Source: a virus
Taxonomy: Duplodnaviria; Heunggongvirae; Uroviricota; Caudoviricetes
DNA: 64,000 nt
Virus record (IMG/VR): IMGVR_UViG_3300009826_000019
Location: 43,941 to 107,940 of that record
Strand: one strand, 5' to 3'
The stretch's first letter is position 1, and each line of letters opens with the position of its first letter. The position numbers were made by a program, and so were the translations under genes. This document shows positions 28,501-58,569 of the stretch, piece after piece. The notes beneath the pieces were generated by a model that saw nothing but the letters and a program-made list of their open reading frames with translations, ran no database searches and had not been told where the DNA came from.

Positions 28501-28572
28501 AGCGGTGTATTTCAATGGTTAGAATGACGGTCTCCAAAACCGTAGATGGGAGTTCGAGTCTCTCCACCGCTG
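28501..28572 (+). tRNA. tRNA-Trp (CCA)
   Basis: Acceptor AGCGGTG/CACCGCT; anticodon arm ACGGT-CTCCAAA-ACCGT; T-arm GGGAG-TTCGAGT-CTCTC; discriminator G then an encoded CCA. Confidence 0.75.
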
Positions 28573-28617
28573 CCAAGTGGGTTTAACACCCCCTGTTATT
28601 CATATTTTTTAAGAAAA

Positions 28618-29965: not shown

Positions 29966-30253
29966 TTATCCTTCGTCTTCTTCCTCTTCTTCGTAATCGA
30001 GATATGAGTCGAAAATGATTTCGTCGCTAAGGATTTCAGGCTTACCGCAAGAAATAACCACTACTTCTTTTTCTGTTGTGCCGCAATGGTTAGTTAAACT
30101 AAACGTTACAGGAAATTCACCATATTCAGTAGGATTACCGAATAATTCACCTGTTGCTTCGTCTAATTGTACGCCAGCTGGTAATACACCACTAACAAGT
30201 TTCCACTCACCAGGGGAGCCTCTAAACAATATTTGTTCTCTTTGTTCTTCCAT
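29966..30253 (-). CDS. Ig-like (He_PIG-type) domain protein
   Basis: G.PGEW...GVLP.G.QL.E.TGEL.G.P....FPVT motif shared with 45132..45821. Confidence 0.5.
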   Translation of the reverse strand: MEEQREQILFRGSPGEWKLVSGVLPAGVQLDEATGELFGNPTEYGEFPVTFSLTNHCGTTEKEVVVISCGKPEILSDEIIFDSYLDYEEEEEDEG

Positions 30254-30463
30254 GACTGTAATTTATTATAAGATTATTATTATATTATTTTTTACAATAA
30301 TAAATAGTGGAAAAAAAACAATTAATTATTGGTGGTGGTAAAATTCGGAAAGATTTTTTCTTCATGTTGTTTGTCATTAAAAAACGTTGTTTGTCAAAAT
30401 ATATCTAAAAAACTATTTTATGTAAATATTTATACTCGGTAATAATAAATAAATTTAAACAAA

Positions 30464-31534
30464 ATGAAAAGATTTTTTATGTATTTGGTAGCAGTAATGG
30501 TATTATTTACTGCGTGTGCGAAGGATGCTTTGCAGGATGAATCAGCTTTGAAAAGTGCGCAAAACATTGCAAAGGCTGTTGATGTGAAAACAATACTTTC
30601 AACTCATGGTGAGTGTATTGCGGATTTTAACGACATTGGTTATGACCAACAATGGTTTAACAAATTCGGAAAACAATTGAACGGTTCGGGTTTCCACAAA
30701 GTGGATAACGGAGTTAATTTTGAAAAGAAGGGTAACGATACGTGGTTACATTTTGATGAAGAAAACGAAGCGGGTATAGTAACCGTTGCTTATAAGAATG
30801 GTAATTATTTTGCGTTCTTCAATTTTGACGCACAGTGTTTAGCGGGTCAATCGGTGTATTTTGACGGTAAGATTTACAGTGTATTAAAATGGGATTATGA
30901 TGCGGAAGGAAGTTTTGCGAAAATTGAATGTCCTTATCCTGATACCGATTTCACTGAGTTGTTTGATAATATTGTGTTCGTACAAGAAATGGGGTTAGTA
31001 AATGGACAAGCGTGTTATACAGAAGATTCGTGGGCAACATTGTGGTTAGCACTTCAAACCGCTGCTGCTTTAACAACTGAAATATGTGTATCACAAGAAG
31101 ACGTTGACGCTGCTGCAAAGGATTTAATGGATGCGTTTGACGCTTTAATTTACAAGGTAACTGCTGACGCTTTCTTCATTAATTTGAATAACCTTACAAA
31201 TCAGGTTTCCCAATCCATTAAAGAAACGTATGTATATCCATTCTTCCCTGATATGACCGATGATGAAATTGAATCGAAATATGGTGGTGGTGCACAAAGA
31301 ACGTTGGTTGTATTAACCTTATTCAATGATTGTTTATACACACCATTCGGAACAGTAAAATCATGGCTTGCAGAGGGCACACAAGGCGACAGCGGTACAA
31401 CGGGTGTGAACACCTTTGCTGATGACAATGTAATTGTAACCGTTAATCATAGCGCACGTTCAGGTGAACAAGTATTTTCTTGTACCTACGGTTCTTTTGT
31501 TTATAAAGGAAATCCGGTTGTAACTTTGAAGTAA
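30464..31534 (+). CDS. lipoprotein (356 aa)
   Basis: N-terminal signal with lipobox LFTAC; direct repeat TTGTTTGTCA x2 upstream. Confidence 0.6.
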   Translation: MKRFFMYLVAVMVLFTACAKDALQDESALKSAQNIAKAVDVKTILSTHGECIADFNDIGYDQQWFNKFGKQLNGSGFHKVDNGVNFEKKGNDTWLHFDEENEAGIVTVAYKNGNYFAFFNFDAQCLAGQSVYFDGKIYSVLKWDYDAEGSFAKIECPYPDTDFTELFDNIVFVQEMGLVNGQACYTEDSWATLWLALQTAAALTTEICVSQEDVDAAAKDLMDAFDALIYKVTADAFFINLNNLTNQVSQSIKETYVYPFFPDMTDDEIESKYGGGAQRTLVVLTLFNDCLYTPFGTVKSWLAEGTQGDSGTTGVNTFADDNVIVTVNHSARSGEQVFSCTYGSFVYKGNPVVTLK

Positions 31535-31549
31535 TTTCTTACATTCATA

Positions 31550-31580
31550 TAAACAAAAAATCCGATATATTTCATATCGG
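31550..31580. terminator. bidirectional rho-independent terminator
   Basis: Hairpin AATCCGATATATTTCATATCGGATT between an A-run and a T-run, between convergent genes. Confidence 0.75.
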
Positions 31581-31606
31581 ATTTTTTTTGTTACTCTACA
31601 TAGTAT

Positions 31607-31987
31607 TTAATATACTATTTCAATGAAATTAAACTTTAATTTAATGATAAAGGCATACTCCTCTCCCGATTCTAACATATCGTCATCATCGTGTTCATAA
31701 AACCAATTGATTGTTACACCCTTGTTGGTTTCATTAACTTTTTCCAATTTCTTGAAAACATCTAACAAACATTTGGAAGTACCTGTATTAAAGTATTCCA
31801 ATTTTATGTTGACGATTGTTTCCGGTTTTGCTGTTTTAACATAACCGTCTATCCATTCGACCAGGGGTATGAAAAAATCAATTGAATTTTCAAGAAGTGA
31901 CCTTCCTTTAATTTCAAGTAATCCCTGTTCAGCATCAAATACAATAGTCGGGGTTCGTGCCGTTCCTTCTAATATTAGTGTGTCCAT
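31607..31987 (-). CDS. DUF1987 (SiaC-like) protein
   Basis: Recalled family signature: LEGT..TPTIVFDAE.G.LEIKGRS...FNTGTSKCLLDVFKKL...INWFYEHDDDDMLESGEEY. Confidence 0.6.
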   Translation of the reverse strand: MDTLILEGTARTPTIVFDAEQGLLEIKGRSLLENSIDFFIPLVEWIDGYVKTAKPETIVNIKLEYFNTGTSKCLLDVFKKLEKVNETNKGVTINWFYEHDDDDMLESGEEYAFIIKLKFNFIEIVY

Positions 31988-32037
31988 GTTGTTAAAAATA
32001 ATTCTGAATTAATTTCTTATAAATAGAATCATTTTAC

Positions 32038-32253
32038 CTACACAAGTCCCAAATTCTTCAAATAGTTATATTCATCGCTTCCCTCTTCAACGGTTTCTAT
32101 TTGATAGTTTTGAAGGCGTTTGGCAACGTGTTTTAAATATTCTAACTCTTCCTCACCCATTGCACAGTTGGGGATACAAGTATTAAGGTGCGACAATAAC
32201 CTTGTGGCAAAGGTTTTATCACCCCAAACTAATCTATCATTCTTTTCTATCAT
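32038..32253 (-). CDS. hypothetical protein
   Basis: ORF track; within a minus-strand operon. Confidence 0.45.
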   Translation of the reverse strand: MIEKNDRLVWGDKTFATRLLSHLNTCIPNCAMGEEELEYLKHVAKRLQNYQIETVEEGSDEYNYLKNLGLV

Positions 32254-32265
32254 TTTATTTATGTT

Positions 32266-32721
32266 TTAAATTTTCACACCCATTTTTAATAAACAAACTT
32301 TTAAATAGTTAAGTTCTTCGTTGATTTCTTCCACTATGTGCGGAATGAACTTATTGCGTAGTCGTTTAAAAGATAAATTTTGTACAGTGTCGTGTCCAAA
32401 TTTTGGGGCATCATGCATTGAATACTTATATGTATTTCCCTTTTCAAGAGTACCCCCATTTTCAGGATATTTCAACACAAACCCTATAAAACCATTATAG
32501 TTCATTTTTGGAGTTCCAAGTAGATTTTCTTTAATTTCGTTGAGAACATCCATCTGCTTCTTAACCTCTATCAACATATCAATATCTTCGTATTTCACAG
32601 TTGGTATGTTGGCAATTTTCTCACGCAATTCGTTTTTTTCTTGTATGTGTTGATCCTCGTCAAAGTTCGGTCCGGGATTCATTATTGACCGATATACCCC
32701 GCTTTCATCCATATATCCCAT
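32266..32721 (-). CDS. hypothetical protein
   Basis: ORF track. Confidence 0.5.
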   Translation of the reverse strand: MGYMDESGVYRSIMNPGPNFDEDQHIQEKNELREKIANIPTVKYEDIDMLIEVKKQMDVLNEIKENLLGTPKMNYNGFIGFVLKYPENGGTLEKGNTYKYSMHDAPKFGHDTVQNLSFKRLRNKFIPHIVEEINEELNYLKVCLLKMGVKI

Positions 32722-32725
32722 ATTC

Positions 32726-33772
32726 TTAAATATTTTTATTATTAATTATCACTTGTCTATATACACCCGCCATGGTTGCTACATTTACGGTTGATTCTCC
32801 CCAATGTATTATTGTATTTTCTTCCACATATTTATTAACCAACCCATTAAAATTTTCTGCTATAATACCACTATTTTTTAAATCATCAAAAAACTTGGTT
32901 CCATACATATTTTCATATTCAGCGATTGTTCGACCCCTCCAATATGAACCATATAATCCCCCCCATGAAAACCTTGTTGCCGCTTTTAACCAATCAACCA
33001 TAACTCCTTTATCACCAATGTTGGGGTTTTCCAAATGACAATCATGACATAAGAGAACAATGTTATCAGGAGTATTAGTGCCTCCCAATGCTTTGGGAAC
33101 TATATGACACTCTGTTAATCTTCTTTTTTCACTACAACGCCAACACCGCTCATGCGCATCAGACCAATCCACATTTAGTTCACCCTCATATATTTGTTGT
33201 TCCCAATACCTCACAATTTGTTCACGCCTTGTTGATAAGTCTTTTGTATAATAATGGGTTTCGGGGGATATTTCGTTCTTTGTATAGTTTTGTTCTTCAA
33301 ACACTTCACCCATTTTATTTTTAGTGGGTTGCAATATTATTTTTAATACATTATTCAAATATCTTTTACTTTTGAAAAAATTTTCCGCACGTCTAATTAA
33401 TCCATTTACAATTTCTTTTGTTTGATATTTGGGTTTTGGTATTATAATAATCATTTTACCGTATTCTTTATCATTGAAAAGGTGTGTTTCTTTACCCATT
33501 GCTACAAACCCCAAAATTATTCCTTCCGGTGTAGCGTCATCTAAACTTGTTTCTGCTTTCACCACTTCAATATCATAGTTATCTATTAGAAATTGATCTT
33601 TTCCAAAATATTTATTACCAATTTGAATAATTTCTTTTATATCTGTTTTGGATTTTTTATTTAATGTTTTTATTTCACATATTAAGGGATATTTTTCACC
33701 CTTTTCATGTATATAACCACCAACTTTTAATGCTTTCATTATATTAATTGTTTTAAACTTTCTATATTCCAA
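32726..33772 (-). CDS. HNH endonuclease-domain fusion protein
   Basis: CWRCSEKRRLTECHIVPKALGGTNTPDNIVLLCHDCH is an HNH motif, flanked by unknown N- and C-terminal domains. Confidence 0.65.
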   Translation of the reverse strand: MEYRKFKTINIMKALKVGGYIHEKGEKYPLICEIKTLNKKSKTDIKEIIQIGNKYFGKDQFLIDNYDIEVVKAETSLDDATPEGIILGFVAMGKETHLFNDKEYGKMIIIIPKPKYQTKEIVNGLIRRAENFFKSKRYLNNVLKIILQPTKNKMGEVFEEQNYTKNEISPETHYYTKDLSTRREQIVRYWEQQIYEGELNVDWSDAHERCWRCSEKRRLTECHIVPKALGGTNTPDNIVLLCHDCHLENPNIGDKGVMVDWLKAATRFSWGGLYGSYWRGRTIAEYENMYGTKFFDDLKNSGIIAENFNGLVNKYVEENTIIHWGESTVNVATMAGVYRQVIINNKNI

Positions 33773-34416
33773 GCGTCTTCATACAATTTTTTGATTGCTG
33801 CTAACGCTACTTTTTTAAGGTCATCACCAACATAGTCTTTGTTATCAACCCATTCATTGGTGGTTTTATCTTTTACTTGATATTTCTGAATAGAGCGTGA
33901 ACCTATACCCGCAAAATTCGTAAATAATAACGGTGTGTCGTGAAATCGTTGAAACCCTTCCATCTTGTTTACCCAAACATACCAACTTTCTTGACTAAAA
34001 TCAAAAACATAAACCAACTTATTTAATGATATTGCGTATTGAACAGCGTAATTTGTTCCACCCCTCACGCCTTGAAAATCAGGTTTCATTTCAGCAACAG
34101 CGTAGATTGCTTGTGCGTGTTTAACCTGATAATAGTTTCGTGCTTTGAGGTCGTCTGCATACGTTCTCTTAACTGTTTTTAACTTTTTTTTATCAAAACA
34201 TTGTGCCATGAACTTATAACACTCTTCCATTTGAATATTATCCATAATGGTAGGGTGGATATTAAATTCTTTCAGTTGTTTAGATACATTGGGGTTTTCT
34301 TCCGGTCTGAAATGAAATTGTCTATCAGGAGTAATACCATACTTCAAACCATACACACCAAATGCTGTATCTGCGCCGTATGCGCCACCACTATATAATT
34401 TGTGATTTGTTAACAT
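33739..34416 (-). CDS. SLOG-superfamily (DprA/YpsA/LOG-like) Rossmann-fold protein
   Basis: N-terminal YSGGAYGADTAFG glycine-rich nucleotide-binding motif. Confidence 0.45.
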   Translation of the reverse strand: MLTNHKLYSGGAYGADTAFGVYGLKYGITPDRQFHFRPEENPNVSKQLKEFNIHPTIMDNIQMEECYKFMAQCFDKKKLKTVKRTYADDLKARNYYQVKHAQAIYAVAEMKPDFQGVRGGTNYAVQYAISLNKLVYVFDFSQESWYVWVNKMEGFQRFHDTPLLFTNFAGIGSRSIQKYQVKDKTTNEWVDNKDYVGDDLKKVALAAIKKLYEDAWNIESLKQLI

Positions 34417-34709
34417 GGTATGGGGTTTTTATGATATTTACTTTCATATAACGAAGAAAGATTTTCATCCAAAGTACCTGTTATACCTGCGGTAAAATCT
34501 AATATTTCCCAATCCTTTTCTTCCCACGTTTTTTCTTCAATGCGTTCCAAATATTCTTTAAAACAACTTATCCACTCGTGAACCGTAAATTCTGTTGGGT
34601 GATTTTCATCCTTTTCTATATCGTCTGCTACACCCAAGATATATTGGTCTAAACCCCTTTGAGCAAATTTAGCAAACCCCTCTAACGTTAATTGTCTTTC
34701 CTGTATCAT
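34410..34709 (-). CDS. hypothetical protein (first gene of the minus-strand operon)
   Basis: ORF track. Confidence 0.45.
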   Translation of the reverse strand: MIQERQLTLEGFAKFAQRGLDQYILGVADDIEKDENHPTEFTVHEWISCFKEYLERIEEKTWEEKDWEILDFTAGITGTLDENLSSLYESKYHKNPIPC

Positions 34710-34749
34710 ATTATTTTAAATGTTTCTATGTCGTAAATTTACATTTAAT

Positions 34750-34765
34750 TCTATTTATATTAAAA
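34750..34765 (+). promoter_or_regulatory. candidate late promoter motif TCTATTTATATTAAAA
   Basis: Lies 11 nt upstream of the gp21-like protease ATG. Confidence 0.4.
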
Positions 34766-34776
34766 TTTAATGGTGT

Positions 34777-35496
34777 ATGAATAATATTCAACAACAATTA
34801 CTAAAAGAGGTTAAGCGTGGTCAATCAGGTTACGGATTTCTATTTGAGAATGACGGATTTGTTGATCCTACTAACCAAAAACATATGTTAAATGAAGACA
34901 GAGATAGAAGTGAATGGTATATACCATTTCCTTATATTATCCACGCCGTCTTTCAAAAAGCGGATACCCCAAACGCCAACGGTAGAATATACCCAAGACC
35001 AATATTAGAAAGAGAACTTATAAAATATCAACTAAAAATCAGTGAAAGAAGGGCTTATGGTGAAAGTGACCACCCCGAATCAACCATTATATCCACAAAG
35101 GGTATTTCAATGAACATTATTAAATTATGGTGGGAAGGAAAAACTATTGTGGGTGATTTGGAAGTACCACTATCACATGGATTTGTGAAGAATGGTATTT
35201 GTAGCACTCCGGGAGATATTATTGCGAATAATATTTATTATAATAGGTTGAAACTTGGTGTTTCTTCGAGAGGTGTGGGTTCCGTGGAAGCAGGAAAAAA
35301 CAATATTAATGTTGTTGGAGACGATTTTGAACTTTTGTGTTGGGATTGGGTGACTGACCCTTCAACACCGGGTGCTTGGACAGCAAAAGATATGAGTGAT
35401 TTGAAACCTTATATTGAAAACACAGAAATCAAAACTTGTGAAAAGAAAATATTCATCATTGAAAAAGTTGATAAAGTATTACAAATTATAAAATAA
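34777..35496 (+). CDS. prohead core protease, T4 gp21-like
   Basis: Recalled T4 gp21 blocks: GRIYPRPILERE~KRLYPKRILEKA, GESDHP~GELNHP, IIKLWWEG~IIEDMWWKG, GVSSRGVGS~GVSSRGLGS, DPSTPGAWT~GPSAPDAWV. Confidence 0.8.
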   Translation: MNNIQQQLLKEVKRGQSGYGFLFENDGFVDPTNQKHMLNEDRDRSEWYIPFPYIIHAVFQKADTPNANGRIYPRPILERELIKYQLKISERRAYGESDHPESTIISTKGISMNIIKLWWEGKTIVGDLEVPLSHGFVKNGICSTPGDIIANNIYYNRLKLGVSSRGVGSVEAGKNNINVVGDDFELLCWDWVTDPSTPGAWTAKDMSDLKPYIENTEIKTCEKKIFIIEKVDKVLQIIK

Positions 35497-35500
35497 AGTT

Positions 35501-36076
35501 ATGTTAGATTTTTTTTCCAATTTTCATTTGTCGTGGCTGTTTTACATGTCATTTACCGTTCTCTTCGGTTGGGTTGGAGTACTGTTATTTAAAATTAAGG
35601 GTATCCCTGTAAGTCTTAGTGAAACAAGATATTTAGTTAATCACCGAAAAGTTGGACACCTTCTATGGTATCTTATGTGTACCTTAACCGCAATACCATT
35701 AATGATAGTATGGATATACTATTTGAATAAGTATGAAATGGAAGGACAAATACTTGCTTATTTGACCTGTTTGGCTTTGGTTGGTGTCGGAATTGCGGGT
35801 GATTTCAAAGACGCTGGGTGGAAGTTTTTTATTCATTGTTTGTTTGCTTTAATTAGTGCCGGTGCGTGTGTTGTGTGGATTTGTCTATATTCACCACTTG
35901 CTTTTATTATCATACCGATTGCAATATTCTTTACATTGGTAGGATTGTGGACAGGTGGTCGGTCAGCAGAAAACCGTGTGGGAAAACCAAAGAGAAACGC
36001 TATTGTATTTTATCTCGAATTTGTTTGTTTTTTAGCAATTTACCTCTGTATCTACGGTTTGATTATTGGTATCTGA
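35501..36076 (+). CDS. polytopic membrane protein
   Basis: Five to six hydrophobic helices. Confidence 0.55.
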   Translation: MLDFFSNFHLSWLFYMSFTVLFGWVGVLLFKIKGIPVSLSETRYLVNHRKVGHLLWYLMCTLTAIPLMIVWIYYLNKYEMEGQILAYLTCLALVGVGIAGDFKDAGWKFFIHCLFALISAGACVVWICLYSPLAFIIIPIAIFFTLVGLWTGGRSAENRVGKPKRNAIVFYLEFVCFLAIYLCIYGLIIGI

Positions 36077-36292
36077 ATCGGTGATACAATAACTTAACAT
36101 TTGAAGTCGCTTCTGTTTTGCTGTCTGACATTTTGGACAAAGGTGTTTGAATTTTCTACCTTTTGGGTCACTATACCAACCATGTTCCAAAAACCGTTTA
36201 AGGAGTTCTTCCCAACTACTACCCCAAACATCACTATTACAACATTTGTCACAATGTGCTTCAAAAATTACATTACCTATACTCTTAATCAT
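36032..36292 (-). CDS. small Cys-rich zinc-binding protein
   Basis: HCDKCCN...CPKCQ. Confidence 0.45.
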   Translation of the reverse strand: MIKSIGNVIFEAHCDKCCNSDVWGSSWEELLKRFLEHGWYSDPKGRKFKHLCPKCQTAKQKRLQMLSYCITDSDTNNQTVDTEVNC

Positions 36293-36330
36293 ATTATTTA
36301 CCTATTATTTGATCAGTTACCTATGTTGGG

Positions 36331-36372
36331 TAACTGTGTTAAAAAAAATAACACCCCCAAAGTTATGAGGGT
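36331..36372 (-). terminator. rho-independent terminator (minus strand) ending the SPFH operon
   Basis: Minus-strand hairpin AACACCCTCATAACTTTGGGGGTGTT followed by T8. Confidence 0.65.
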
Positions 36373-36387
36373 GTTAAAAATTATAAT

Positions 36388-36660
36388 TTAATTACTTAAA
36401 TACCGGTTGAGTTTTGTGTCTTTCATTTTCACTCTTGGGGTGTCGGATACACCGCAGTCAAAAGAGTTGAACATTAATACAAGTATATACACCGCACCTG
36501 CAACTATGTTCACAACCGGTACTAATCCCAAGACAAGAAGTAAGAGTATAAAACCTTTTGGTATTGGTTTATCTTTCCACAATAAGTGCCTTCTTGAAAA
36601 CCACGCCGCTATTAAACATATAGTGAATGGTATTAAAATTAATCCCAAATTAAGTCCCAT
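36388..36660 (-). CDS. small two-helix membrane protein, possible NfeD-like SPFH partner
   Basis: Two TM helices; immediately downstream of the SPFH gene. Confidence 0.45.
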   Translation of the reverse strand: MGLNLGLILIPFTICLIAAWFSRRHLLWKDKPIPKGFILLLLVLGLVPVVNIVAGAVYILVLMFNSFDCGVSDTPRVKMKDTKLNRYLSN

Positions 36661-36665
36661 AATGC

Positions 36666-37499
36666 TTACCTCCCCACTTGTGGTAAATTAATCAAAGGTA
36701 CACCGGAACCACCACTATACATAGGGAGTTTTCCATCCCACTTTTCGATAGCGTATTGTTGAACGAGTAACATATTAAGTGATGCTGCAACAACCCTGTT
36801 GTAGTATGCTTCGCCGTCACCCTTAATTTTCAAGGCTTCCGCTTCACCACGCGCTTTAGTTACTTCGATTTCCGCTTGTGCTCTTGCACGAGCGACCTCA
36901 TTTTCCGCCCTCATCGCTTCCTGTACCATTCGGTTTCTTGAATCAATCGCCTCTACCAAACTTGCCGGTGGTGCAATCGCAGCCGTAAATTCAACAACCT
37001 GAAAACCTTGACTACCTAACGATTGTTCGAGCATTTCTCGGACTTGTGCCTCAAACTCACCACGCTTCGCCATTAATTCATCGGATGTGAAGAGGTTCCC
37101 AACAGTTCGATAAGCGTCAAACACACAGGTTAGAATAAATCCTTGTTCGATTTCCTTTATGGGTCTACGATATGTTAAAAACACATCAATCGCCTTATCG
37201 GGATTCAAACGGTACGCCAAGTTTGGTGTGATACGGAAAATTGCCGCATCCTTCGCATTAACGGTGATTTCACCATACGAAACTCGTTGTACGTACACCG
37301 GATACTGATGTACACTCTGTGTAAAGGGGTTAAACCACACAAAACCACGTACAGTTCCCATTACACCACCTTGTTTCTCTTCCGAAACACTCCACTTGTG
37401 GAATTTAATACCAACCGAGGTCGAATCGACCGTGGTACAACTTTGGGCGAACATCATAATCGCCACTAAACTCAAAATCCAAAAACTTCCTTTCTTCAT
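36666..37499 (-). CDS. SPFH/band-7 (stomatin/prohibitin/HflC-like) lipoprotein
   Basis: Signal with lipobox MFAQSC; SPFH core plus coiled-coil EAMRAENEVARARAQAEIEVTKARGEAEA. Confidence 0.75.
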   Translation of the reverse strand: MKKGSFWILSLVAIMMFAQSCTTVDSTSVGIKFHKWSVSEEKQGGVMGTVRGFVWFNPFTQSVHQYPVYVQRVSYGEITVNAKDAAIFRITPNLAYRLNPDKAIDVFLTYRRPIKEIEQGFILTCVFDAYRTVGNLFTSDELMAKRGEFEAQVREMLEQSLGSQGFQVVEFTAAIAPPASLVEAIDSRNRMVQEAMRAENEVARARAQAEIEVTKARGEAEALKIKGDGEAYYNRVVAASLNMLLVQQYAIEKWDGKLPMYSGGSGVPLINLPQVGR

Positions 37500-41109: not shown

Positions 41110-41490
41110 ATGGTACATACAATTATAATCGGTGTTTGGATGACATTGTTATTTATAACATTGTCTGTTGTTTTCGTATATATGTTTAAGAAACCAAAAC
41201 ATAATATAAACGAGGTTTTTGAACAAATATTTAAGAAACAAGTTGATTTGTTAAAAAAAATTGACGAAGAAAACACAATGCAAGTAGAGGTGTTTGATAA
41301 ACTTAACCATAATATTGTAGAGAATTATCGCATACTATTGCAAATACAAATAAAAGAATCTATTAAACACAACCCCTTTGAAACAGAACATATTCTAAAA
41401 TTATATAACGATTACATTGGTATTGCCAAATATCCGAACACAGTTTTAGATGATGCGGTTAATGAGTGGAGAAACCTATACGGTTATTAA
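41110..41490 (+). CDS. bitopic membrane protein
   Basis: Hydrophobic segment IIIGVWMTLLFITLSVVFVYMF. Confidence 0.5.
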   Translation: MVHTIIIGVWMTLLFITLSVVFVYMFKKPKHNINEVFEQIFKKQVDLLKKIDEENTMQVEVFDKLNHNIVENYRILLQIQIKESIKHNPFETEHILKLYNDYIGIAKYPNTVLDDAVNEWRNLYGY

Positions 41491-42086
41491 CAAATAAATT
41501 CCACCATACCACTATCCAAATAGAGATATGCGCCAACAATTTTTATATCACCATTTTTTTCCTTTTCACGTAAAAAACGATATTCCCGAATTGTATTTAC
41601 AGATTGTTGAACATTTGTTCGACACACCAAATCAAAGAAACCAGGATTAGACGATACGGTTTCACCACCATAAATAATATCCGCACTTGCTCGTACCGCC
41701 GGTAGTATTGGGCGAAGTTTTCCTAACAAACCCCAATCCTTTTCCTCTGTATCAATAACACGTTTGACAGCAGCACAATTATCATGTCCCAAAACCATTA
41801 CCAAATTCACGGAAGGAAAACTACAAGCAAATACCAAATCAAATAAAATTTCATTGGTAATAACATTCCCCGATGTGCGAATTGTAATAACATCACCCGC
41901 ACCCAATTTAAAAATATCTTCAACCACAATACGAGAATCTATACAAGTTACTATCACCGCTTTCGGTGTTTGTTCCTTAATACTATGGGGTTTGTCGTTA
42001 ACATATTCTTTGTTACGACATTTTAAAACTTCAAGTGTCGGGTGAGGCACTTCTTCTTTCTTTTTGAATTTAAAAAAATCTTCCAT
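41487..42086 (-). CDS. beta-class carbonic anhydrase
   Basis: CIDSR...GDVITIRTSGN...VLGHDNCAAV carries the Cys/His/Cys zinc-ligand pattern. Confidence 0.75.
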   Translation of the reverse strand: MEDFFKFKKKEEVPHPTLEVLKCRNKEYVNDKPHSIKEQTPKAVIVTCIDSRIVVEDIFKLGAGDVITIRTSGNVITNEILFDLVFACSFPSVNLVMVLGHDNCAAVKRVIDTEEKDWGLLGKLRPILPAVRASADIIYGGETVSSNPGFFDLVCRTNVQQSVNTIREYRFLREKEKNGDIKIVGAYLYLDSGMVEFIC

Positions 42087-43062: not shown

Positions 43063-43827
43063 ATGAGTATTCAAGAAGAAGAAATAAAGAAATTGAAGGA
43101 GGAAAATGAGTTGTTGAAAAAGCGTTTGGATAACGCAAACAAACTCAAATCAACCTTTCTTGCTAATATGAGCCACGAAATTAGAACACCGTTAAACGCT
43201 ATTGTGGGGTTTTCTAATTTTTTAACCGAATGTGAAGAATTAACCGAAAGTGAGCGCAACGAATTTATTAACATTATTCAACAAAATAATGATTACTTAT
43301 TGAAAATCATTGACGATATTTTAGAACTCTCTAAAATTGAAAGAGATCAAGTCTTTATTAATAATGTTAAACTGAAACTAAATCAGTTTTTAGGTGGATT
43401 GATTAATGAGAATAAGAAAAAAATTAACCCCAATAGGAAAGTCGAATTAATATTAGACGATGTGGATTTTATTGAAAATTGTCTTATTGAAGTTGATGCC
43501 ATAAAATTAGAGCAGATACTTAATAATCTTATTGATAATGCTATTAGATTCACATTGAGTGGATATGTGTTAGTTGGGTATAAACAAATACCGGGTTTCA
43601 TTGAATTTTATGTTGAAGATAGTGGAGTTGGAATACCCAAAGAAAAATTAGAACACGTTTTTAATAGTTTTTACCAAATCAATAGTGCTATATGTCCCGA
43701 TTCGGGAATGGGCGTTGGGTTATTTATTTCAAAAAACTATGTTAAAAGAATGGGTGGTGTTATGGGTGTAAGTTCAGTCGAAGGTGAAGGTAGTAGATTT
43801 CATTTTACCATACCATATCTTGTATAA
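43063..43827 (+). CDS. orphan cytoplasmic histidine kinase (HisKA + HATPase_c, no TM, no receiver)
   Basis: H-box MSHEIRTPLNAI; N/G boxes LNNLIDNAIRF, DSGVGIP, GMGVGL, GGVMGV. Confidence 0.8.
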   Translation: MSIQEEEIKKLKEENELLKKRLDNANKLKSTFLANMSHEIRTPLNAIVGFSNFLTECEELTESERNEFINIIQQNNDYLLKIIDDILELSKIERDQVFINNVKLKLNQFLGGLINENKKKINPNRKVELILDDVDFIENCLIEVDAIKLEQILNNLIDNAIRFTLSGYVLVGYKQIPGFIEFYVEDSGVGIPKEKLEHVFNSFYQINSAICPDSGMGVGLFISKNYVKRMGGVMGVSSVEGEGSRFHFTIPYLV

Positions 43828-45898: not shown

Positions 45899-46243
45899 TT
45901 AGGATTTTTCTAACATTTCGATTGCAGCACCGATATTGGGTGTGATATTTAATATAGTATCAAGTTGTGATATAAAAATCAGGCGTTCCACCGCTTCGTT
46001 CAATCCACTGAGGATAAATTTACCACCGGCGTTTTTACACAACCTGTGGGCAACAAGAATTGCACCTAAGCCGGAAGAGTCACAGTATTTGCACATTTCC
46101 AAGTTCAAAATAATGTTCTTCTCACCATTCCCTGATATTAAGACTAATTCGGATTTGAGTGTTGGTGCAATATGTGTGTCTAATTTTTGTTGTTGTACAC
46201 TGATAACGGTGTGTGTAACGTTTTGGTCAATTTTTAAGTTCAT
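45899..46243 (-). CDS. STAS-domain protein (anti-sigma-factor antagonist-like)
   Basis: 114 aa; LDTHIAPTLKSEL...LEMCKYCDSSGLGAIL...GGKFILSGLNEAVERL has SpoIIAA-like topology. Confidence 0.65.
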   Translation of the reverse strand: MNLKIDQNVTHTVISVQQQKLDTHIAPTLKSELVLISGNGEKNIILNLEMCKYCDSSGLGAILVAHRLCKNAGGKFILSGLNEAVERLIFISQLDTILNITPNIGAAIEMLEKS

Positions 46244-49394: not shown

Positions 49395-51311
49395 TTAATT
49401 AACTTCTTCCGCTTCCTGTGGTCCACCGGCGGTTGCTTTACTGAAATCAAAATCACCAAATGGGTTGTCCGCACCCATATTAGCAAACGGATTGCTTGGG
49501 TTTCCACCACCAGGGTTATTTGCCGCATACAATCTTGTTGAAATCGGTATCCACACCTCATCCATTTTCTTTGCTAACTCATCCACCTTTTCGTGGTTTT
49601 CGGTTTTAATAACTTCCTTCAATTCGTCAATCACCGTTTGGATTTTTATTTTTTCCTCATCGGTAATTTTATCACCCATTTCGTCAATTTGTTTTTCGGT
49701 TGAGAAAATTATGGAGTCCGCCTTATTCATAGCTAAAACCTTTTCCATTTTTTTCTTATCCGCTTCGGCGTTATCTTCTGCTTCACGTTTCATTCTTTCA
49801 ACCTCTTCTGACGATAATCCTGATGAAGATTGAATGGTGATATGTTGTTCTTTGTTTGTCCCTTTATCAGTTGCTTTAACAGACATAATACCGTTGGCAT
49901 CAATACTAAATGTTACCTCTATTTGTGGTGTACCGCGCCTTGCCGGTGGAATACCATCTAAATCAAATTGACCTAATAGTTTATTATCATTGAAAGAGGG
50001 GCGTTCACCTTGGGCTACGCGAATGGTTACTGCCGGTTGGTTATCAACTGCTGTGCTGAAAATTTGTGATTTTGAAACAGGGATTGTTGTGTTCGCATCA
50101 ATAAGTTTTGTGAACACACTACCCATAGTTTCGATACCTAATGAAAGTGGTGTGACATCTAAAAGTAGAACGTCTTGTGTTTCACCACTTAACACAGACC
50201 CTTGAACTGCTGCTCCAAGGGCAACAACTTGGTCGGGATGTACACTTTTGTTTGGTTTTCTCCCAAAAAACTTCTCAACAGCCTCTTGTACAGCGGGAAT
50301 ACGAGTACTACCACCAACAAGAATTACTTCGTCAATATCACTTGTGGTTATACCTGCGCTTTTCAATGCTGATTTACAAGGTTCGATTGTGCGTTTAACG
50401 ATAGTTTCTATCATTTGTTCAAATTTCGCACGTGTAATCGTTTGCACGAGGTGTTTTGGTACACCGTCAACCGGCATAATGTATGGAAGATTTATTTCTG
50501 TTTGAACTGAACTTGACAACTCAATTTTCGCCTTCTCAGCGGCTTCTTTCAGGCGTTGTAATGCCATTGGGTCTTTTTTCAAATCAATGGCGTATTCCTT
50601 ATTAAATTCGTCAGCAAGATAATTTATAATGACATGGTCAATATCATCACCCCCCAACCTTGTATCGCCGTCAGTGGATTTGACTTCAAACACACCACCA
50701 CCGAGTTCAAGTATTGATATATCGAATGTACCCCCACCGAAGTCAAATACAGCAATTTTCATATCGTCTTTCTTATCTAAACCAAAAGCCAATGCTGCTG
50801 CCGTAGGTTCATTAATTATACGAGCGACTTCTAATCCGGCTATTTCACCCGCTTCTTTGGTTGCTTGACGCTGTGAATCGGAAAAATAAGCCGGTACAGT
50901 GATAACTGCTTTAACCACCTCTGTTCCAAGAAAATCTTCCGCTGTTTTCCGCATTTTTTGCAGGATTATTGCTGAAATTTCTTGTGGGGAATATTCTTTA
51001 TTTTCAATTTTAACACGAATAGTGTCATTAGTACCACTTACAAGTTCGTATGCAACTTTATCCTTTTCGTTGTTGATTGAACTATATTTTTCACCCATAA
51101 AACGCTTTATGGAATAAACCGTTTTTGTTGGATTAGTTACCGATTGGCGTTTCGCGGAATCTCCCACAACACGCTCACCGTCTTTTATAAAACCAACAAT
51201 TGAGGGGGTGGTGTCCTTCCCCTCACCGTTTGGAATAACCATTGGCTTACCACCTTCTACTACTGAAACACAAGAGTTACTTGTGCCTAAATCTATACCT
51301 ATTATTTTCAT
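49395..51311 (-). CDS. dnaK: Hsp70 chaperone DnaK
   Basis: [17 protein letters not shown]...; full-length 638 aa with canonical ATPase and substrate-binding regions. Confidence 0.9.
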
Positions 51312-51328
51312 ATTAAATATTTATTTTT

Positions 51329-51796
51329 TCAATTTATATCAATTTTTCTAATTGTGGGTTGTTCGGTAGAACTCCACATTTTATCTATAACAATCTCCAA
51401 AATACCATCCACAATATGTGAAGTAGTAGTATCTAAATCACAATCTTTTGGAATGGTAAATGTTTCTTTACCGGGTTTTGTGTTGAAATGAAAACCATTA
51501 TCACGTGGTTTATACTCCACAGTTAGAGTATAATCTTGTAATGTGATTTCAATATCATTTTTTGATAATCCTGGAACCAACAATTCAATCGAATGAGTGT
51601 GTGCATCACTCTCGATATGACAGTTTGATCTACCTATACCGTATGATACAGTATAACTTGGTGGCGCAATTATGTCTTGCGCACGTGGGAGAATACCCCA
51701 CCATGGGCTTGTATCCTCACTTGGTAAAAAATCACCCACATGAAATCTATATGGATAATTACCTGTACCTGTTCTTATGTTACAACAACTTTTCAT
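51329..51796 (-). CDS. small heat-shock protein (Hsp20/alpha-crystallin family)
   Basis: 155 aa; ACD-like LLVPGLSKNDIEITLQDYTLTVE...GILEIVIDK. Confidence 0.75.
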   Translation of the reverse strand: MKSCCNIRTGTGNYPYRFHVGDFLPSEDTSPWWGILPRAQDIIAPPSYTVSYGIGRSNCHIESDAHTHSIELLVPGLSKNDIEITLQDYTLTVEYKPRDNGFHFNTKPGKETFTIPKDCDLDTTTSHIVDGILEIVIDKMWSSTEQPTIRKIDIN

Positions 51797-51908
51797 ATTA
51801 TATAATTATTATTATTATTTATTTTTACATTTACCACTATTCAAAGAGTGTGCCAAAGGATTTTTGTCACAAAAAAAGATGTTTTTTGTGACAAAATATG
51901 ACAGATTG

Positions 51909-52160
51909 TCATACTTGTCCTTCATCTACTGACACCTTTGCAGTATTGAACCGGCGTGAAATACGACCTCTTGTCAGATCGTATGGCGACATTTCTATTT
52001 CGACTTTATCACCAACTAAAATTTTAACGTAGTTTTTGCGTATTTTACCTGATATTACACACAGCACCATGTGTTCGTTTTCCAACTCAACGCGAAAGGT
52101 GGCGTTACCCAACGCTTCTGTAACTATACCTGTTTGGATTATAAGATTCTTTTTACCCAT
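51909..52160 (-). CDS. infA: translation initiation factor IF-1
   Basis: [57 protein letters not shown] nearly collinear with bacterial IF-1 as recalled. Confidence 0.85.
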
Positions 52161-57325: not shown

Positions 57326-57802
57326 TTATTCTTCCTCAAAATCACTTTCATCACCAACACGATGGTTAATTAAAACAGAATCTAATGGTATAGAAAGCGT
57401 ACACTCATATCTAATAGGGTCATCATTTACAAGATTAAACCCTGTAATATAATATGGTTGTCCGTCAATCATTATTTCCATTTGTCCTTTAAAATCAATG
57501 GTAGTACCCTCTTTGTGAAGGCGACACCACTCCATAAGTGCTTCGGATACGCTGGGTTCGGTGTCTTTTTCGGTAAATGTCATTTCAATATTACTCCAAT
57601 GTAATTCTTTATGATTATTCGCAATCTTATCCACAAGTTGTTCTTCCAAAGATATTTCACTTTCAAGTCGTTTTTTACATTCTTGAAGAACTTCTTGGAT
57701 AATATTATCTTCCGGCGTTACATATTCATATTTAGTAAACATTGGACTATCTACTTCCCCAATATTGAGAGGGGGTGTCATTTCATTACTTTCATTATTC
57801 AT
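57326..57802 (-). CDS. tail-tube-family paralogue (158 aa)
   Basis: ORF 57326..58111 trimmed because its N-terminus overlaps tRNA genes; EALMEWCRLHKEG resembles QAVMEWVRLHAES of 43904..44395. Confidence 0.45.
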   Translation of the reverse strand: MNNESNEMTPPLNIGEVDSPMFTKYEYVTPEDNIIQEVLQECKKRLESEISLEEQLVDKIANNHKELHWSNIEMTFTEKDTEPSVSEALMEWCRLHKEGTTIDFKGQMEIMIDGQPYYITGFNLVNDDPIRYECTLSIPLDSVLINHRVGDESDFEEE

Positions 57803-57855
57803 ATCATTTTTTCTATAAATATACAGTATTTTAAAATAACATTGAATTATATGTG

Positions 57856-57936
57856 AGCGGATAGTGGGACTCGAACCCACACGCCTTTCGGCACTAGTTC
57901 CTAAGACTAGCGCGTATACCATTCCGCCATATCCGC
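57856..57936 (-). tRNA. tRNA-Leu (TAG), class II
   Basis: Acceptor GCGGATA/TATCCGC; anticodon arm CTAGT-CTTAGGA-ACTAG; long variable arm GCC-GAAA-GGC; T-arm GTGGG-TTCGAGT-CCCAC. Confidence 0.8.
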
Positions 57937-58002
57937 ATATTATCACAAATATTTGCACTGTTATCATAGGTATTGATAATAGTGCAATTTTATTTGATAA
58001 TG

Positions 58003-58075
58003 TATGAGTGGAGGGATTCGAACCCCCGATTTCGTGGTCCCAAACCACGCGCCATACCAACTTGACCACACCCAT
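58003..58075 (-). tRNA. tRNA-Pro (TGG)
   Basis: Anticodon arm CGTGG-TTTGGGA-CCACG; acceptor ATGGGTG/CACTCAT with one G-U. Confidence 0.7.
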
Positions 58076-58082
58076 GTTGTTG

Positions 58083-58154
58083 ATGTTCCACCAGGACTTG
58101 AACCTGGACAAACAGATTCAAAATCTGTTGTGCTAACCATTACACAATGGAACA
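58083..58154 (-). tRNA. tRNA-Gln (TTG)
   Basis: Acceptor TGTTCCA/TGGAACA; anticodon arm ACAGA-TTTTGAA-TCTGT; T-arm CCAGG-TTCAAGT-CCTGG. Confidence 0.75.
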
Positions 58155-58160
58155 ATGTAG

Positions 58161-58233
58161 CTGGGATAGTAGGTCACGATCCTACGACCTGCGGATTAAC
58201 AGTCCGATGCTCTACCAACTGAGCTATATCCCA
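58161..58233 (-). tRNA. tRNA-Asn (GTT)
   Basis: Anticodon loop CTGTTAA; T-arm GTAGG-ATCGTGA-CCTAC has an unusual A54/T58; acceptor TGGGATA/TATCCCA. Confidence 0.6.
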
Positions 58234-58240
58234 ATTTTGC

Positions 58241-58311
58241 GGTCGATGTGGGATTCGAACCCCTCCTCTACCGTGACAGGGTAACGTGCTAACCATTACA
58301 CTACACCGACC
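58241..58311 (-). tRNA. tRNA-Asp (GTC), possibly non-canonical T-stem
   Basis: Anticodon arm TTACC-CTGTCAC-GGTAG; acceptor GGTCGGT/ATCGACC; T-stem has two mismatches. Confidence 0.5.
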
Positions 58312-58317
58312 ATTTTG

Positions 58318-58393
58318 GGTGAGAGAGGAGAATCGAACCCCCGACCTTCTGATCCACAATCAGACGCTCTAACCTACCTGAGCTACCCTCACC
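58318..58393 (-). tRNA. tRNA-His (GTG) with encoded G-1
   Basis: Extra 5' G pairs with discriminator C73; anticodon arm TCTGA-TTGTGGA-TCAGA. Confidence 0.75.
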
Positions 58394-58401
58394 ATATATT
58401 G

Positions 58402-58474
58402 TAGTCGGTACGGGACTCGAACCCGTTTCTCCACCTTGAAAGGGTGGTGTCCTGACCAATTAGACGAACCGACC
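58402..58474 (-). tRNA. tRNA-Glu (TTC)
   Basis: Anticodon arm CCACC-CTTTCAA-GGTGG; T-arm ACGGG-TTCGAGT-CCCGT. Confidence 0.8.
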
Positions 58475-58483
58475 ATATTTTTG

Positions 58484-58568: not shown

Positions 58569-58569
58569 A

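What the first reader, a model, noticed from the sequence alone, without database searches (positions are those of the whole stretch)
31607..34709. Six-gene minus-strand operon with a SLOG-fold protein, an HNH-nuclease fusion and DUF1987
34410..34709 (unknown), 33739..34416 (YSGGAYGADTAFG, a SLOG/DprA/LOG-like nucleotide-binding Rossmann motif), 32726..33772 (348 aa with a central HNH motif between two uncharacterised domains), two unknown ORFs and the DUF1987 gene lie head-to-tail with small overlaps, between a bidirectional terminator and the divergent gp21 gene. SLOG and HNH domains are building blocks of nucleotide-signalling conflict systems; in a virulent phage the block could be counter-defence or a homing-endonuclease cassette carrying passengers. 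The HNH fusion is not a typical short free-standing HNH homing enzyme.
Basis: partly seen in the sequence, partly recalled or inferred. Interest (0 to 1): 0.65.

Follow-up and report, generated by a model that had tools for sequence, protein, structure and literature searches.

The report
Mosaic accessory gene cluster beside gp21
The six genes are real, but they look like a patchwork of unrelated add-on genes in a jumbo T4-like phage of Bacteroidota, not one defence-related machine; the most unusual piece is a host-derived signalling protein (SiaC) that has lost its partner kinase.

Summary
All six minus-strand ORFs, the domain calls, the gp21 neighbour and the bidirectional terminator are confirmed. 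The block is not a conserved unit.

- **Indel:** a related phage (L052, gp21 66-76% identical) keeps only the 71-aa gene's homologue next to gp21. The 99-aa, SLOG, HNH, 151-aa and SiaC genes are absent there.
- **SLOG protein:** it belongs to a widespread phage family (phrog_768, "DprA-like"). It is SLOG at superfamily level only, with no Pfam family above threshold. Its 60-74% relatives follow SSB in the order SSB-SLOG-homing endonuclease(s)-gp23. Most of its closest relatives are domains inside giant proteins, repeatedly AlkB-like/SLOG/SF1-helicase. This points to work on DNA rather than a signalling system with the HNH.
- **HNH protein:** residues ~165-337 match a ~200-aa free-standing HNH family. 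Only the N-terminal 165 residues are orphan, and their DNA is AT-rich (27% GC). A selfish homing-type insertion is the likeliest reading.
- **SiaC:** 55-60% identical to Bacteroidota SiaC and keeps Y65/N67/T68. Bacterial homologues follow a SiaB kinase in 31 of 33 loci, and the window has none. There is no match in 50,697 phage genomes. A STAS gene and a short histidine kinase lie nearby.

Interest is modest.

The parts
34752..34759 (-). TATAAATA motif (T4 late-promoter consensus), 43 nt upstream of the 99-aa start codon; candidate promoter for the block
   Evidence: 26 copies in the window against 12.8 expected, with 0 of 100 shuffles reaching 26. Many copies lie upstream of genes in the correct orientation. 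Function is inferred, not shown.
34410..34709 (-). 99-aa ORFan. Its stop overlaps the SLOG start by 7 nt. Residues 58-90 resemble the N-terminal region of gp23 in related phages.
   Evidence: no family match; local alignment score 71-75 against a shuffle mean of 25 (sd 4.7), 0 of 1000 shuffles; it is the only window hit to that gp23 N-terminal segment (E ~1e-4).
33739..34416 (-). 225-aa stand-alone SLOG-superfamily protein (phage 'DprA-like' family phrog_768). Motifs: SGGAYGAD, RNYYQV, GGTNYAVQ, FAGIGSR.
   Evidence: There are 1128 representative relatives at E <= 1e-3.
33245..33739 (-). N-terminal ~165 residues of the HNH ORF. Orphan sequence, 26.9% GC against 34% for the window, not modelled by AlphaFold2.
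   Evidence: no homologue covers it; pLDDT below 50 for residues 1-98 and 138-168; GC content.
32726..33244 (-). HNH nuclease core plus C-terminal helical region, homologous to a ~200-aa free-standing HNH_5 family
   Evidence: PF01844, PF14279 above cut-off. (26 relatives of 185-223 aa, 35-45% identity, plus one weak 270-aa hit; invariant C-x2-C...H...N...C-x2-C-H). (McrA, Gme and Cas9-type HNH folds).
32266..32721 (-). 151-aa ORFan
   Evidence: only itself among 5.8 billion proteins; no family match.
32038..32253 (-). 71-aa protein (phrog_24038). It is 65% identical to the C-terminal 65 residues of a 189-aa protein that lies divergent from gp21 in relative L052. It is the only block gene conserved at this position.
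31607..31987 (-). 126-aa SiaC/DUF1987 partner-switch phosphoprotein, host-derived, with no SiaB kinase found in the window. Y65, N67 and T68 are conserved.
   Evidence: (136.5 bits), (55-60% identity to Bacteroidota; a SiaB-family kinase precedes it in 31 of 33 bacterial loci; none in the window), and PMC8457831 for residue roles.
31555..31587 (.). Bidirectional intrinsic-terminator-like hairpin closing the block and the convergent 356-aa lipoprotein gene
   Evidence: and the sequence.

Best explanation
The six genes are a co-directional accessory ('moron') cluster. They are probably transcribed together from the gp21-proximal intergenic region to the hairpin at 31555-31587, but they were assembled from parts with separate histories and separate jobs.

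1. **SLOG protein.** It is a stand-alone copy of a widespread phage SLOG module. I infer that it binds single-stranded DNA or a nucleotide moiety on DNA and assists replication, recombination or repair, or protects phage DNA. Elsewhere the same module sits next to SSB, or is fused between an AlkB-like repair domain and an SF1 helicase.
2. **HNH gene.** It is a selfish, homing-type free-standing endonuclease lodged immediately 3' of the SLOG gene, where relatives carry other homing endonucleases. It has picked up an orphan AT-rich N-terminal extension, possibly its DNA-recognition part.
3. **SiaC.** It was captured from a Bacteroidota host without its SiaB kinase. I infer that it plugs into the host SiaA/SiaB partner switch as an extra substrate, decoy or output protein.
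4. **The 99-, 151- and 71-aa genes.** These are small phage-specific proteins. Only the 71-aa one is ancestral to this position.

Shown: gene content, homologies, synteny and the indel. Inferred: co-transcription, all biochemical activities and homing.
For: **Not a conserved unit**
- Relative L052 (gp21 66-76% identical, flanking membrane protein 68%) has only the 71-aa gene's homologue next to gp21. It has no match to the 99-aa, SLOG, HNH, 151-aa or SiaC genes.
- Relatives of the SLOG protein at 60-74% identity share nothing else with the window.

**SLOG context**
- The order 334-aa gene, SSB, SLOG, homing endonuclease(s), gp23 recurs in L004, L008, L009 and L058.
- SSB lies 1.4 kb away, and a DNA methylase upstream, in the 360-kb contig L056.
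- In Caulobacter phage Cr30 the gene directly follows gp46/gp47.
- Of the 150 best representatives, 87 exceed 1000 aa, 24 carry an SF1 helicase, and in 11 the helicase follows directly.
- The order AlkB-like, SLOG, SF1 helicase is seen in P0037 and P0045. L055 has SLOG followed by an AlkB-like domain.
- The family's invariant polar residues (D16, R93, Q97, T121) do not include a glutamate, unlike the LOG motif PGGxGTxxE as I recall it.

**HNH**
- The C-terminal half matches free-standing ~200-aa HNH proteins found in phage or mobile contexts.
- The N-terminal half has no homologue and 26.9% GC.
- Genes downstream of SLOG in relatives hit the homing-endonuclease PHROGs 559 and 3339 at 1e-51 to 1e-76.

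**SiaC**
-; no hit in 50,697 phage genomes or in PHROGs.
- A STAS antagonist and a 254-aa HisKA+HATPase_c kinase lie 11-14 kb away.
Against: - The tight packing (1-nt SLOG/HNH overlap, 7-nt 99-aa/SLOG overlap) could also mean functional coupling.
- SLOG-HNH fusions have been reported in phages (PMC9503650).
- Finding an endonuclease gene directly after SLOG in three lineages besides this window, and one gene further on in a fourth, could reflect function rather than homing.
- The only independent relative with this gp21 locus is L052. Contigs L001-L003 are 100% identical to the window, so the direction of the indel (insertion here or loss there) is unknown.
- The SLOG fold assignment rests on a poor model (pLDDT 56) and sub-threshold profile hits.
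- The same SLOG family also occurs with NADAR and near thymidylate synthase, which fits a nucleotide or ADP-ribose substrate as well as DNA.
- No biochemical property was tested.
Confidence: 0.55

Rival explanations
1. The SLOG protein and the HNH nuclease form a functional sensor-effector pair. SLOG senses a nucleotide or ADP-ribose derivative made by host immunity and controls the nuclease, as a phage counter-defence or anti-restriction device.
For: - There is a 1-nt stop/start overlap between the two genes.
- PMC9503650 reports sporadic SLOG-HNH fusions in phages and proposes 'SLOG sensor-activated systems'.
- An endonuclease gene follows the SLOG gene directly in three other lineages, and after one intervening gene in a fourth.
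- An HNH gene lies 1.3 kb upstream of the SLOG gene in the jumbo phages PHA46 and Hallingskeid.
Against: - The endonucleases next to SLOG belong to unrelated families: HNH_5 here, PHROGs 559 and 3339 in relatives. Those PHROGs are annotated HNH or homing endonuclease, and the genes vary in number (one or two).
- None of the 150 closest SLOG relatives contains this HNH.
- The HNH's own relatives are free-standing and sit in unrelated neighbourhoods.
- There is no PADLOC hit of note.
Confidence: 0.15
2. The SLOG protein acts on its own as an anti-immune enzyme or sponge. It would bind or cleave the N-glycosidic bond of NAD+-derived signals (cADPR isomers and similar), as proposed for viral SLOG domains. 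The rest of the block is unrelated.
For: - PMC9503650 predicts this role for most viral SLOG domains.
- Close relatives are modules of giant multi-domain proteins of the kind injected with phage DNA: the crAss-like cr130_1 5.8-kaa gene and the Schitoviridae Pylas virion RNA polymerase. One of them (P0045) also carries NADAR.
- A late-promoter-like motif lies upstream of the block.
Against: - The repeated neighbours are SSB, gp46/47, an SF1 helicase and AlkB-like domains, all DNA-centred.
- No Macro domain was found in the relatives examined.
- There is no match to ThsA-type or other defence or anti-defence models.
- No conserved acidic catalytic residue is evident.
Confidence: 0.2
3. The whole segment 32266-34709 (151-aa, HNH, SLOG and 99-aa genes) is one mobile cassette. 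A homing endonuclease moved it together with its passenger genes from the SSB-gp23 region to the gp21 locus.
For: - The segment is missing from L052, while the flanking 71-aa homologue and gp21 are adjacent there.
- In relatives the SLOG gene lies in a different place, between SSB and gp23.
- The 99-aa ORF carries a short gp23 N-terminus-like segment, which could be a recombination scar.
Against: - Only one comparison genome is available, and the region around it is otherwise rearranged: an inversion of the He_PIG/379-aa genes and different lipoprotein and ThyA genes.
- No repeats or target-site signatures were looked for or found.
- The SSB-gp23 region of this phage is outside the window, so relocation as opposed to duplication cannot be judged.
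Confidence: 0.1

Closest known systems
Phage 'DprA-like DNA recombination-mediator' proteins (PHROG 768), e.g. Caulobacter phage Cr30 gp147 (YP_009098905.1) and the stand-alone SLOG proteins of jumbo phages surveyed in PMC9503650 and PMC7824862
   Same: - Same family by profile (E = 8.6e-17).
- Same motifs after strand 1 (SGGAxGAD) and in the RN and GGT segments.
- Similar size, and location among DNA-metabolism genes in relatives.
   Different: - In this phage the gene is away from SSB and recombination genes. It sits between an ORFan and an HNH gene next to gp21.
- No Pfam SLOG family (DprA, YpsA, cpYpsA, YAcAr, LOG) is reached at threshold.
- It lacks the extra DprA domains; the protein is only 225 aa.
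Free-standing HNH (HNH_5/PF14279) endonucleases of phages and mobile elements; homing endonucleases of T4-like phages
   Same: - HNH core with C-x2-C...C-x2-C-H zinc ligands above the Pfam cut-offs.
- The ~170-aa C-terminal half is 35-45% identical to ~200-aa stand-alone proteins.
- The gene sits between conserved genes and is absent from a relative.
   Different: - It carries a 165-residue N-terminal extension with no homologue anywhere and unusually low GC.
- Homing activity and target are untested.
Pseudomonas aeruginosa SiaC (DUF1987) of the SiaABCD partner switch (PMC8457831)
   Same: - Full-length PF09345 match.
- Y65, N67 and the phospho-acceptor T68 are at identical positions (residue roles from PMC8457831).
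   Different: - It is below the NCBIfam equivalog cut-off (84.7 against 150 bits).
- Position 69 is Gly rather than Ser.
- It is encoded by a phage with no SiaB kinase in the window, and no SiaA phosphatase or GGDEF protein in the scanned part 29966-64000, whereas Bacteroidota homologues follow a SiaB-family kinase.
- Its target in Bacteroidota is unknown.

Membership tests
SLOG superfamily (Burroughs/Aravind definition) | [quoted passage not shown] | tested here: met
   SGGAYGAD at residues 9-16 and GGT at 119-121 are invariant or nearly invariant across 28 family members. This is read from the sequence alignment, not from a solved structure.
SLOG superfamily (Burroughs/Aravind definition) | Significant profile or structure match to an established SLOG family | tested here: inconclusive
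   - phrog_768 'DprA-like' matches at 8.6e-17.
- Pfam gives only sub-threshold hits: cpYpsA 8 of 28 members (best 0.0065), YAcAr 3, DprA 2.
- PDB profile searches are empty.
DprA/Smf (PF02481) | Pfam gathering score; DprA domain architecture (SAM-like N-terminal domain, Rossmann fold, C-terminal winged helix); ssDNA and RecA binding | tested here: not met
   - The window protein has no PF02481 hit, and 2 of 28 relatives hit below threshold.
- hhalign against E. coli Smf gave nothing (the template was a single sequence, so this is a weak test).
- The protein is a single 225-aa domain.
- ssDNA and RecA binding cannot be tested with these tools.
LOG (cytokinin riboside 5'-monophosphate phosphoribohydrolase) family | PGGxGTxxE catalytic motif (from my own knowledge of the family) | tested here: not met
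   The corresponding segment is GGTNYAVQ, with no conserved Glu. There is no PF03641 hit.
Thoeris ThsA-type SLOG or other catalogued defence and anti-defence proteins | Match to a PADLOC model | tested here: not met
   no hit for five of the six proteins. The HNH protein gives only weak HNH-core hits (mREase_IV 0.0033, DpdF 0.02).
HNH endonuclease (PF01844 / PF14279) | Pfam gathering score; beta-beta-alpha-metal core with the catalytic His and Asn and Cys4 zinc ligands | tested here: met
   - 30.2 bits against a 21.4 cut-off, and 30.7 against 27.5.
- C199, C202, H212, N226, C231, C234 and H235 (337-aa numbering) are invariant or nearly invariant.
- Foldseek hits are to McrA, Gme HNH and Cas9 HNH (weak E-values).
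Homing endonuclease gene (functional class) | Presence/absence polymorphism at an otherwise conserved site; cleavage of the endonuclease-free allele | tested here: inconclusive
   The gene is absent from L052, but so are three neighbouring genes, and only one relative is available. Cleavage cannot be tested here.
SiaC family (PF09345 / DUF1987) | Pfam gathering score over the full domain; conserved phospho-acceptor threonine | tested here: met
   136.5 bits against a 24.5 cut-off, covering residues 7-123 of 126. T68 is present, with Y65 and N67 (PMC8457831).
SiaABCD-type partner-switch module | SiaC encoded with its SiaB kinase (and SiaA phosphatase and a target such as SiaD); NCBIfam equivalog score | tested here: not met
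   - There is no SiaB-like sequence in the window (tblastn E > 0.4).
- The Pfam scans that cover 29966-64000 found no PP2C or GGDEF domain; most of 1-29900 was not scanned.
- The NCBIfam SiaC equivalog scores 84.7 against a cut-off of 150.
- In bacteria, 31 of 33 homologous loci have SiaB immediately upstream.
Operon (single transcription unit) | One promoter, no internal terminators, one terminator; transcript evidence | not testable with these tools
   Spacing is compatible: overlaps of 7 and 1 nt, then gaps of 4, 12 and 50 nt. No minus-strand terminator-like site lies inside the block, and the hairpin sits at its end. A TATAAATA motif lies upstream. There are no expression data.

The most novel reading that the evidence does not exclude
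The phage carries a set of 'orphan' partner-switch and phosphorelay parts taken from its Bacteroidota host. These are SiaC without SiaB (31607-31987), a STAS anti-sigma antagonist (45899-46243) and a 254-aa kinase in which only HisKA and HATPase_c domains were detected (43063-43827). It would use them to rewire host serine/threonine partner-switch signalling during infection, for example by titrating the host SiaB kinase or SiaA phosphatase, or by directly switching on the host's SiaC target. This would be a class of host take-over genes not matched in any of the 50,697 phage genomes searched.

A second, less likely reading concerns the 99-aa protein with its gp23-propeptide-like segment and the translationally coupled SLOG protein. 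They could be made late and packed into the head, making this the stand-alone equivalent of the SLOG modules found in giant injected proteins.
Probability: 0.3. Interest if true: 0.6.

Novelty: new member of a known kind. Interest (0 to 1): 0.33.

Why it matters
As a candidate conflict system the block does not hold up, which saves follow-up effort. Its parts are new members of known families in an uncultured jumbo T4-like phage (contigs up to 368 kb).

Three points have some wider value:
1. The phage SLOG family annotated 'DprA-like' occurs mostly as a module inside giant multi-domain proteins, repeatedly next to AlkB-like and SF1-helicase domains, and otherwise next to SSB. That gives a concrete, testable DNA-centred hypothesis for a domain whose viral role is so far only predicted, as ADPr-signal processing.
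2. The 3' flank of this SLOG gene looks like a recurrent landing site for different homing endonucleases.
3. A host-derived SiaC without its kinase, alongside STAS and histidine-kinase genes, suggests that phages of Bacteroidota may tamper with partner-switch signalling.

Tried and rejected
- **DNA similarity.** blastn of 30000-36500 against 50,697 phage records found no match.
- **Single-protein scans of IMG/VR.** The SLOG and SiaC proteins found nothing. The alignment-based scan found only four SLOG loci. The metagenome scan added one new locus.
- **PADLOC.** Nothing meaningful.
- **PDB by sequence profile.** Alignments A1 and A3 returned only chance-level hits.
- **hhalign of the family against E. 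coli Smf.** No alignment. The template was a single sequence, so this is not informative.
- **AlphaFold2.** Both models are of low confidence (pLDDT 56 and 58), so I use the fold searches only as weak support. The N-terminal 165 residues of the HNH protein remain unassigned.
- **151-aa protein.** An ORFan.
- **99-aa protein.** Unrelated to the 64-aa ORF that precedes SLOG in L008.
- **SiaB in the phage.** I looked for the kinase in the window and found none.
- **Is the 151-aa ORF the missing N-terminus of the 189-aa L052 protein?** I considered this and found no similarity.
- **L001-L003 as independent relatives.** Rejected: they are 100% identical to the window.
- **Sigma-70-type promoter scan.** Not above shuffle expectation (23 found against 19 expected), and it is not appropriate for Bacteroidota or T4-like late promoters.


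Full report
**1. Observation**

The six minus-strand ORFs are present exactly as listed. Public gene calls on identical contigs start the HNH gene at the ATG at 33739, giving 337 aa, rather than the TTG at 33772. With that start the junctions are a 7-nt overlap (99-aa/SLOG), a 1-nt overlap (SLOG/HNH), then gaps of 4, 12 and 50 nt.

A 15-pair hairpin at 31555-31587, flanked by A and T runs, scores as a terminator on both strands. The divergent neighbour at 34777-35496 is a Peptidase_S77 (gp21-type) prohead protease. No minus-strand terminator-like site lies inside the block.

A TATAAATA motif, the T4 late-promoter consensus, lies 43 nt upstream of the first start codon. The motif is about twofold enriched in the window: 26 copies against 12.8 expected, with 0 of 100 shuffles reaching 26. 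Co-transcription is therefore plausible but not shown.

**2. Source**

- No DNA match exists in 50,697 deposited phage genomes.
- Proteins identical to the window's occur on metagenomic contigs up to 368 kb.
- The gp21 protein is closest to Flavobacterium and other T4-like phages.
- The window also holds a portal-sized gene, 11 tRNA genes, DnaK, Hsp20, IF-1, carbonic anhydrase and a Band-7 protein.
- SiaC is 55-60% identical to Bacteroidota proteins.

This is an uncultured jumbo T4-like phage, probably infecting Bacteroidota. Contigs L001-L003 are 100% identical over the block, so they give no independent information.

**3. SLOG protein (33739-34416)**

*Family assignment.* Pfam gives no hit above threshold. 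PHROG 768, 'DprA-like DNA recombination-mediator protein', matches at 8.6e-17. An exhaustive HMMER search of 1.84 billion representatives finds 1128 relatives.

An alignment of 28 stand-alone members shows these invariant or near-invariant motifs:
- hSGGAxGAD
- RNYxQV
- GGTxxAVQ
- PVYVFD
- FAGIGTR

The SLOG call therefore stands at superfamily level. Membership of DprA, LOG or ThsA-type families is not supported.

*Context of relatives.*
- Relatives at 60-74% identity sit in a conserved order: 334-aa gene, SSB, SLOG, one or two homing-endonuclease genes, gp23. This holds in four lineages (L004, L008, L009, L058).
- A 43% relative on a 360-kb contig has a DNA methylase upstream and SSB 1.4 kb downstream.
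- In Caulobacter phage Cr30 the gene directly follows gp46/gp47.
- In the jumbo phages PHA46 and Hallingskeid it lies two genes from thymidylate synthase.
- Of the 150 best representatives, only 27 are 300 aa or shorter and 87 exceed 1000 aa. Of the 150, 24 contain an SF1 helicase, and in 11 it follows the SLOG domain directly.
- The order AlkB-like, SLOG, SF1 helicase recurs in P0037 and P0045. L055 has SLOG followed by an AlkB-like domain. NADAR and DUF7831 also occur.
- Hosts of the domain include a 5.8-kaa gene of crAss-like phage cr130_1 and the virion RNA polymerase of the Schitoviridae phage Pylas.

*Literature.* Viral SLOG domains are described as common (31% of jumbo phages) and typically stand-alone. 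They are predicted to process ADPr-derived immune signals, with sporadic fusions to HNH and SF1 helicase (PMC9503650). A DprA/Smf-like ssDNA-binding role has also been suggested for jumbo phages (PMC7824862).

*My reading.* The recurring partners (SSB, gp46/47, AlkB-like, SF1 helicase, methylase) are DNA-centred. The conserved polar residues do not include an obvious catalytic acid. I therefore favour an ssDNA- or DNA-nucleotide-binding accessory role, at roughly 50-55%, over signal degradation, at roughly 20-30%. Neither was tested.

**4. HNH protein (32726-33739)**

The HNH core passes the Pfam cut-offs. Residues ~165-337 are 35-45% identical to 26 free-standing proteins of 185-223 aa that share both the HNH core and the following helical region. 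Those proteins sit in unrelated phage or mobile neighbourhoods, for example next to Fic/HTH genes.

The 'C-terminal unknown domain' is therefore part of a known HNH family. Only the N-terminal 165 residues are orphan:
- no homologue in 5.8 billion proteins;
- not modelled by AlphaFold2;
- 26.9% GC against 34-35% for the neighbouring genes.

That pattern suggests a chimeric gene. Foldseek places the core with McrA, Gme and Cas9-type HNH domains.

Genes downstream of SLOG in relatives hit the homing-endonuclease PHROGs 559 and 3339 at 1e-51 to 1e-76. These families are different from this HNH. Different selfish endonucleases occupying the same flank is the pattern expected of homing in T4-like genomes.

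**5. SiaC (31607-31987)**

The PF09345 match is full-length at 136.5 bits. It scores below the NCBIfam SiaC equivalog cut-off. Y65, N67 and T68 are conserved at the positions shown in Pseudomonas aeruginosa to contact SiaD and to be phosphorylated by SiaB (PMC8457831).

In 31 of 33 Bacteroidota loci the homologue is immediately preceded by a SiaB-family kinase (PF19788/NF038262). The window has no such gene. SiaC has no tblastn match in 50,697 phage genomes and no PHROG.

A STAS anti-sigma antagonist and a 254-aa HisKA+HATPase_c kinase lie 11-14 kb away. I infer that SiaC is a captured host gene acting on the host partner switch, independent of SLOG and HNH.

**6. The small ORFs**

- **151-aa protein:** an ORFan.
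- **71-aa protein:** matches phrog_24038. It is 65% identical to the C-terminus of a 189-aa protein that lies divergent from gp21 in L052.
- **99-aa protein:** no family match. Its residues 58-90 resemble residues 20-53 of gp23 in relatives: score 71-75 against a shuffle mean of 25 (sd 4.7), 0 of 1000 shuffles. It is the only such hit in the window. This is a short match and only a lead. It could be a capsid-interaction motif or a recombination scar.

**7. Is the block a unit?**

L052 is the one independent relative with this locus: gp21 is 66-76% identical and the downstream membrane protein 68%. There, the 71-aa homologue and gp21 are separated by ~240 bp. No match exists to the 99-aa, SLOG, HNH, 151-aa or SiaC genes. 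A different lipoprotein and ThyA lie downstream. Conversely, the SLOG loci of other relatives share nothing else with the window.

The six genes therefore have different histories. Segment 32266-34709 is an indel of unknown direction.

**8. Verdict**

The interpretation as a nucleotide-signalling conflict operon is not supported as a unit. The 'homing cassette' alternative and a possible counter-defence role for SLOG alone remain open. The parts are new members of known families, and the orphan SiaC is the least ordinary element.

Scores: interest 0.33; confidence in the mosaic explanation 0.55.

Noticed in passing
window 43063-43827 (+) and 45899-46243 (-): The phage encodes a 254-aa histidine kinase in which Pfam finds only HisKA and HATPase_c (no sensor domain detected), and a 114-aa STAS anti-sigma-factor antagonist (TIGR00377, 63 bits). 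Together with SiaC these make three host-type signalling parts in one phage window. The kinase is partly conserved in relative L052.
   Followed up: partly
window 49395-52160 (-): A cluster of host-like chaperone and translation genes: DnaK/Hsp70 (638 aa, identified by eye from the sequence), Hsp20 and translation initiation factor IF-1 (the last two from Pfam hits).
   Followed up: no
window 57855-58687 (-), 1145-1219 (+), 28501-28575 (+): An array of nine tRNA genes (Leu, Pro, Gln, Asn, Asp, His, Glu, Tyr, Thr), plus single tRNA-Cys and tRNA-Trp genes. The long ORF 57326-58111 overlaps the array and is probably not a gene.
   Followed up: no
L052 6624-8435: In the related phage the gp21 protease gene is 603 aa, with an in-frame insertion of ~360 aa that looks like an intein carrying a homing-endonuclease part (it begins CYTPDT... 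and ends ...HWTNN before SDHPESS). The window's gp21 has no insertion.
   Followed up: partly
L052 8451-15221: A 2256-aa protein made of dozens of ~45-residue repeats (...TSQIFNGKLYIP...TLEIFDL.TETTRTVTLP...) lies between gp21 and the conserved membrane protein. The window has nothing there.
   Followed up: no
window 34410-34709 (-), residues 58-90: The 99-aa ORFan shares a 33-residue segment (WEILDFTAGITGTLDENLSSLYES core) with the N-terminal region of gp23 major capsid proteins of relatives. In T4 that region is the propeptide (from my own knowledge). This could be a capsid-targeting motif or a recombination scar.
   Followed up: partly
window-wide, e.g. 34752-34759 (-), 61049-61056 (-), 60962-60969 (+): TATAAATA, the T4 late-promoter consensus, is about twofold over-represented (26 against 12.8 expected). 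It often lies just upstream of genes in the right orientation, including the portal-sized gene and this block.
   Followed up: partly
proteins P0037, P0045, P0038, P0041; locus L055 76-8343: Giant (1.6-4.9 kaa and larger) proteins carry this SLOG domain in a recurring order: AlkB-like 2OG-Fe(II) oxygenase, SLOG, SF1 (RecD/Pif1-like) helicase. One also has NADAR. DUF7831 is another repeated partner (P0035, P0051, P0057). PMC9503650 describes viral SLOG domains as typically stand-alone.
   Followed up: partly
window 33245-33739 (-): The part of the HNH ORF encoding the orphan N-terminal 165 residues has 26.9% GC, against 34-35% for all neighbouring genes. This suggests a different origin from the HNH half.
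   Followed up: partly
window 41487-42086 (-), 36666-37499 (-), 29966-30253 (-): Further host-like accessory genes: a beta-class carbonic anhydrase (Pro_CA), an SPFH/Band-7 lipoprotein and a small He_PIG Ig-like protein.
   Followed up: no
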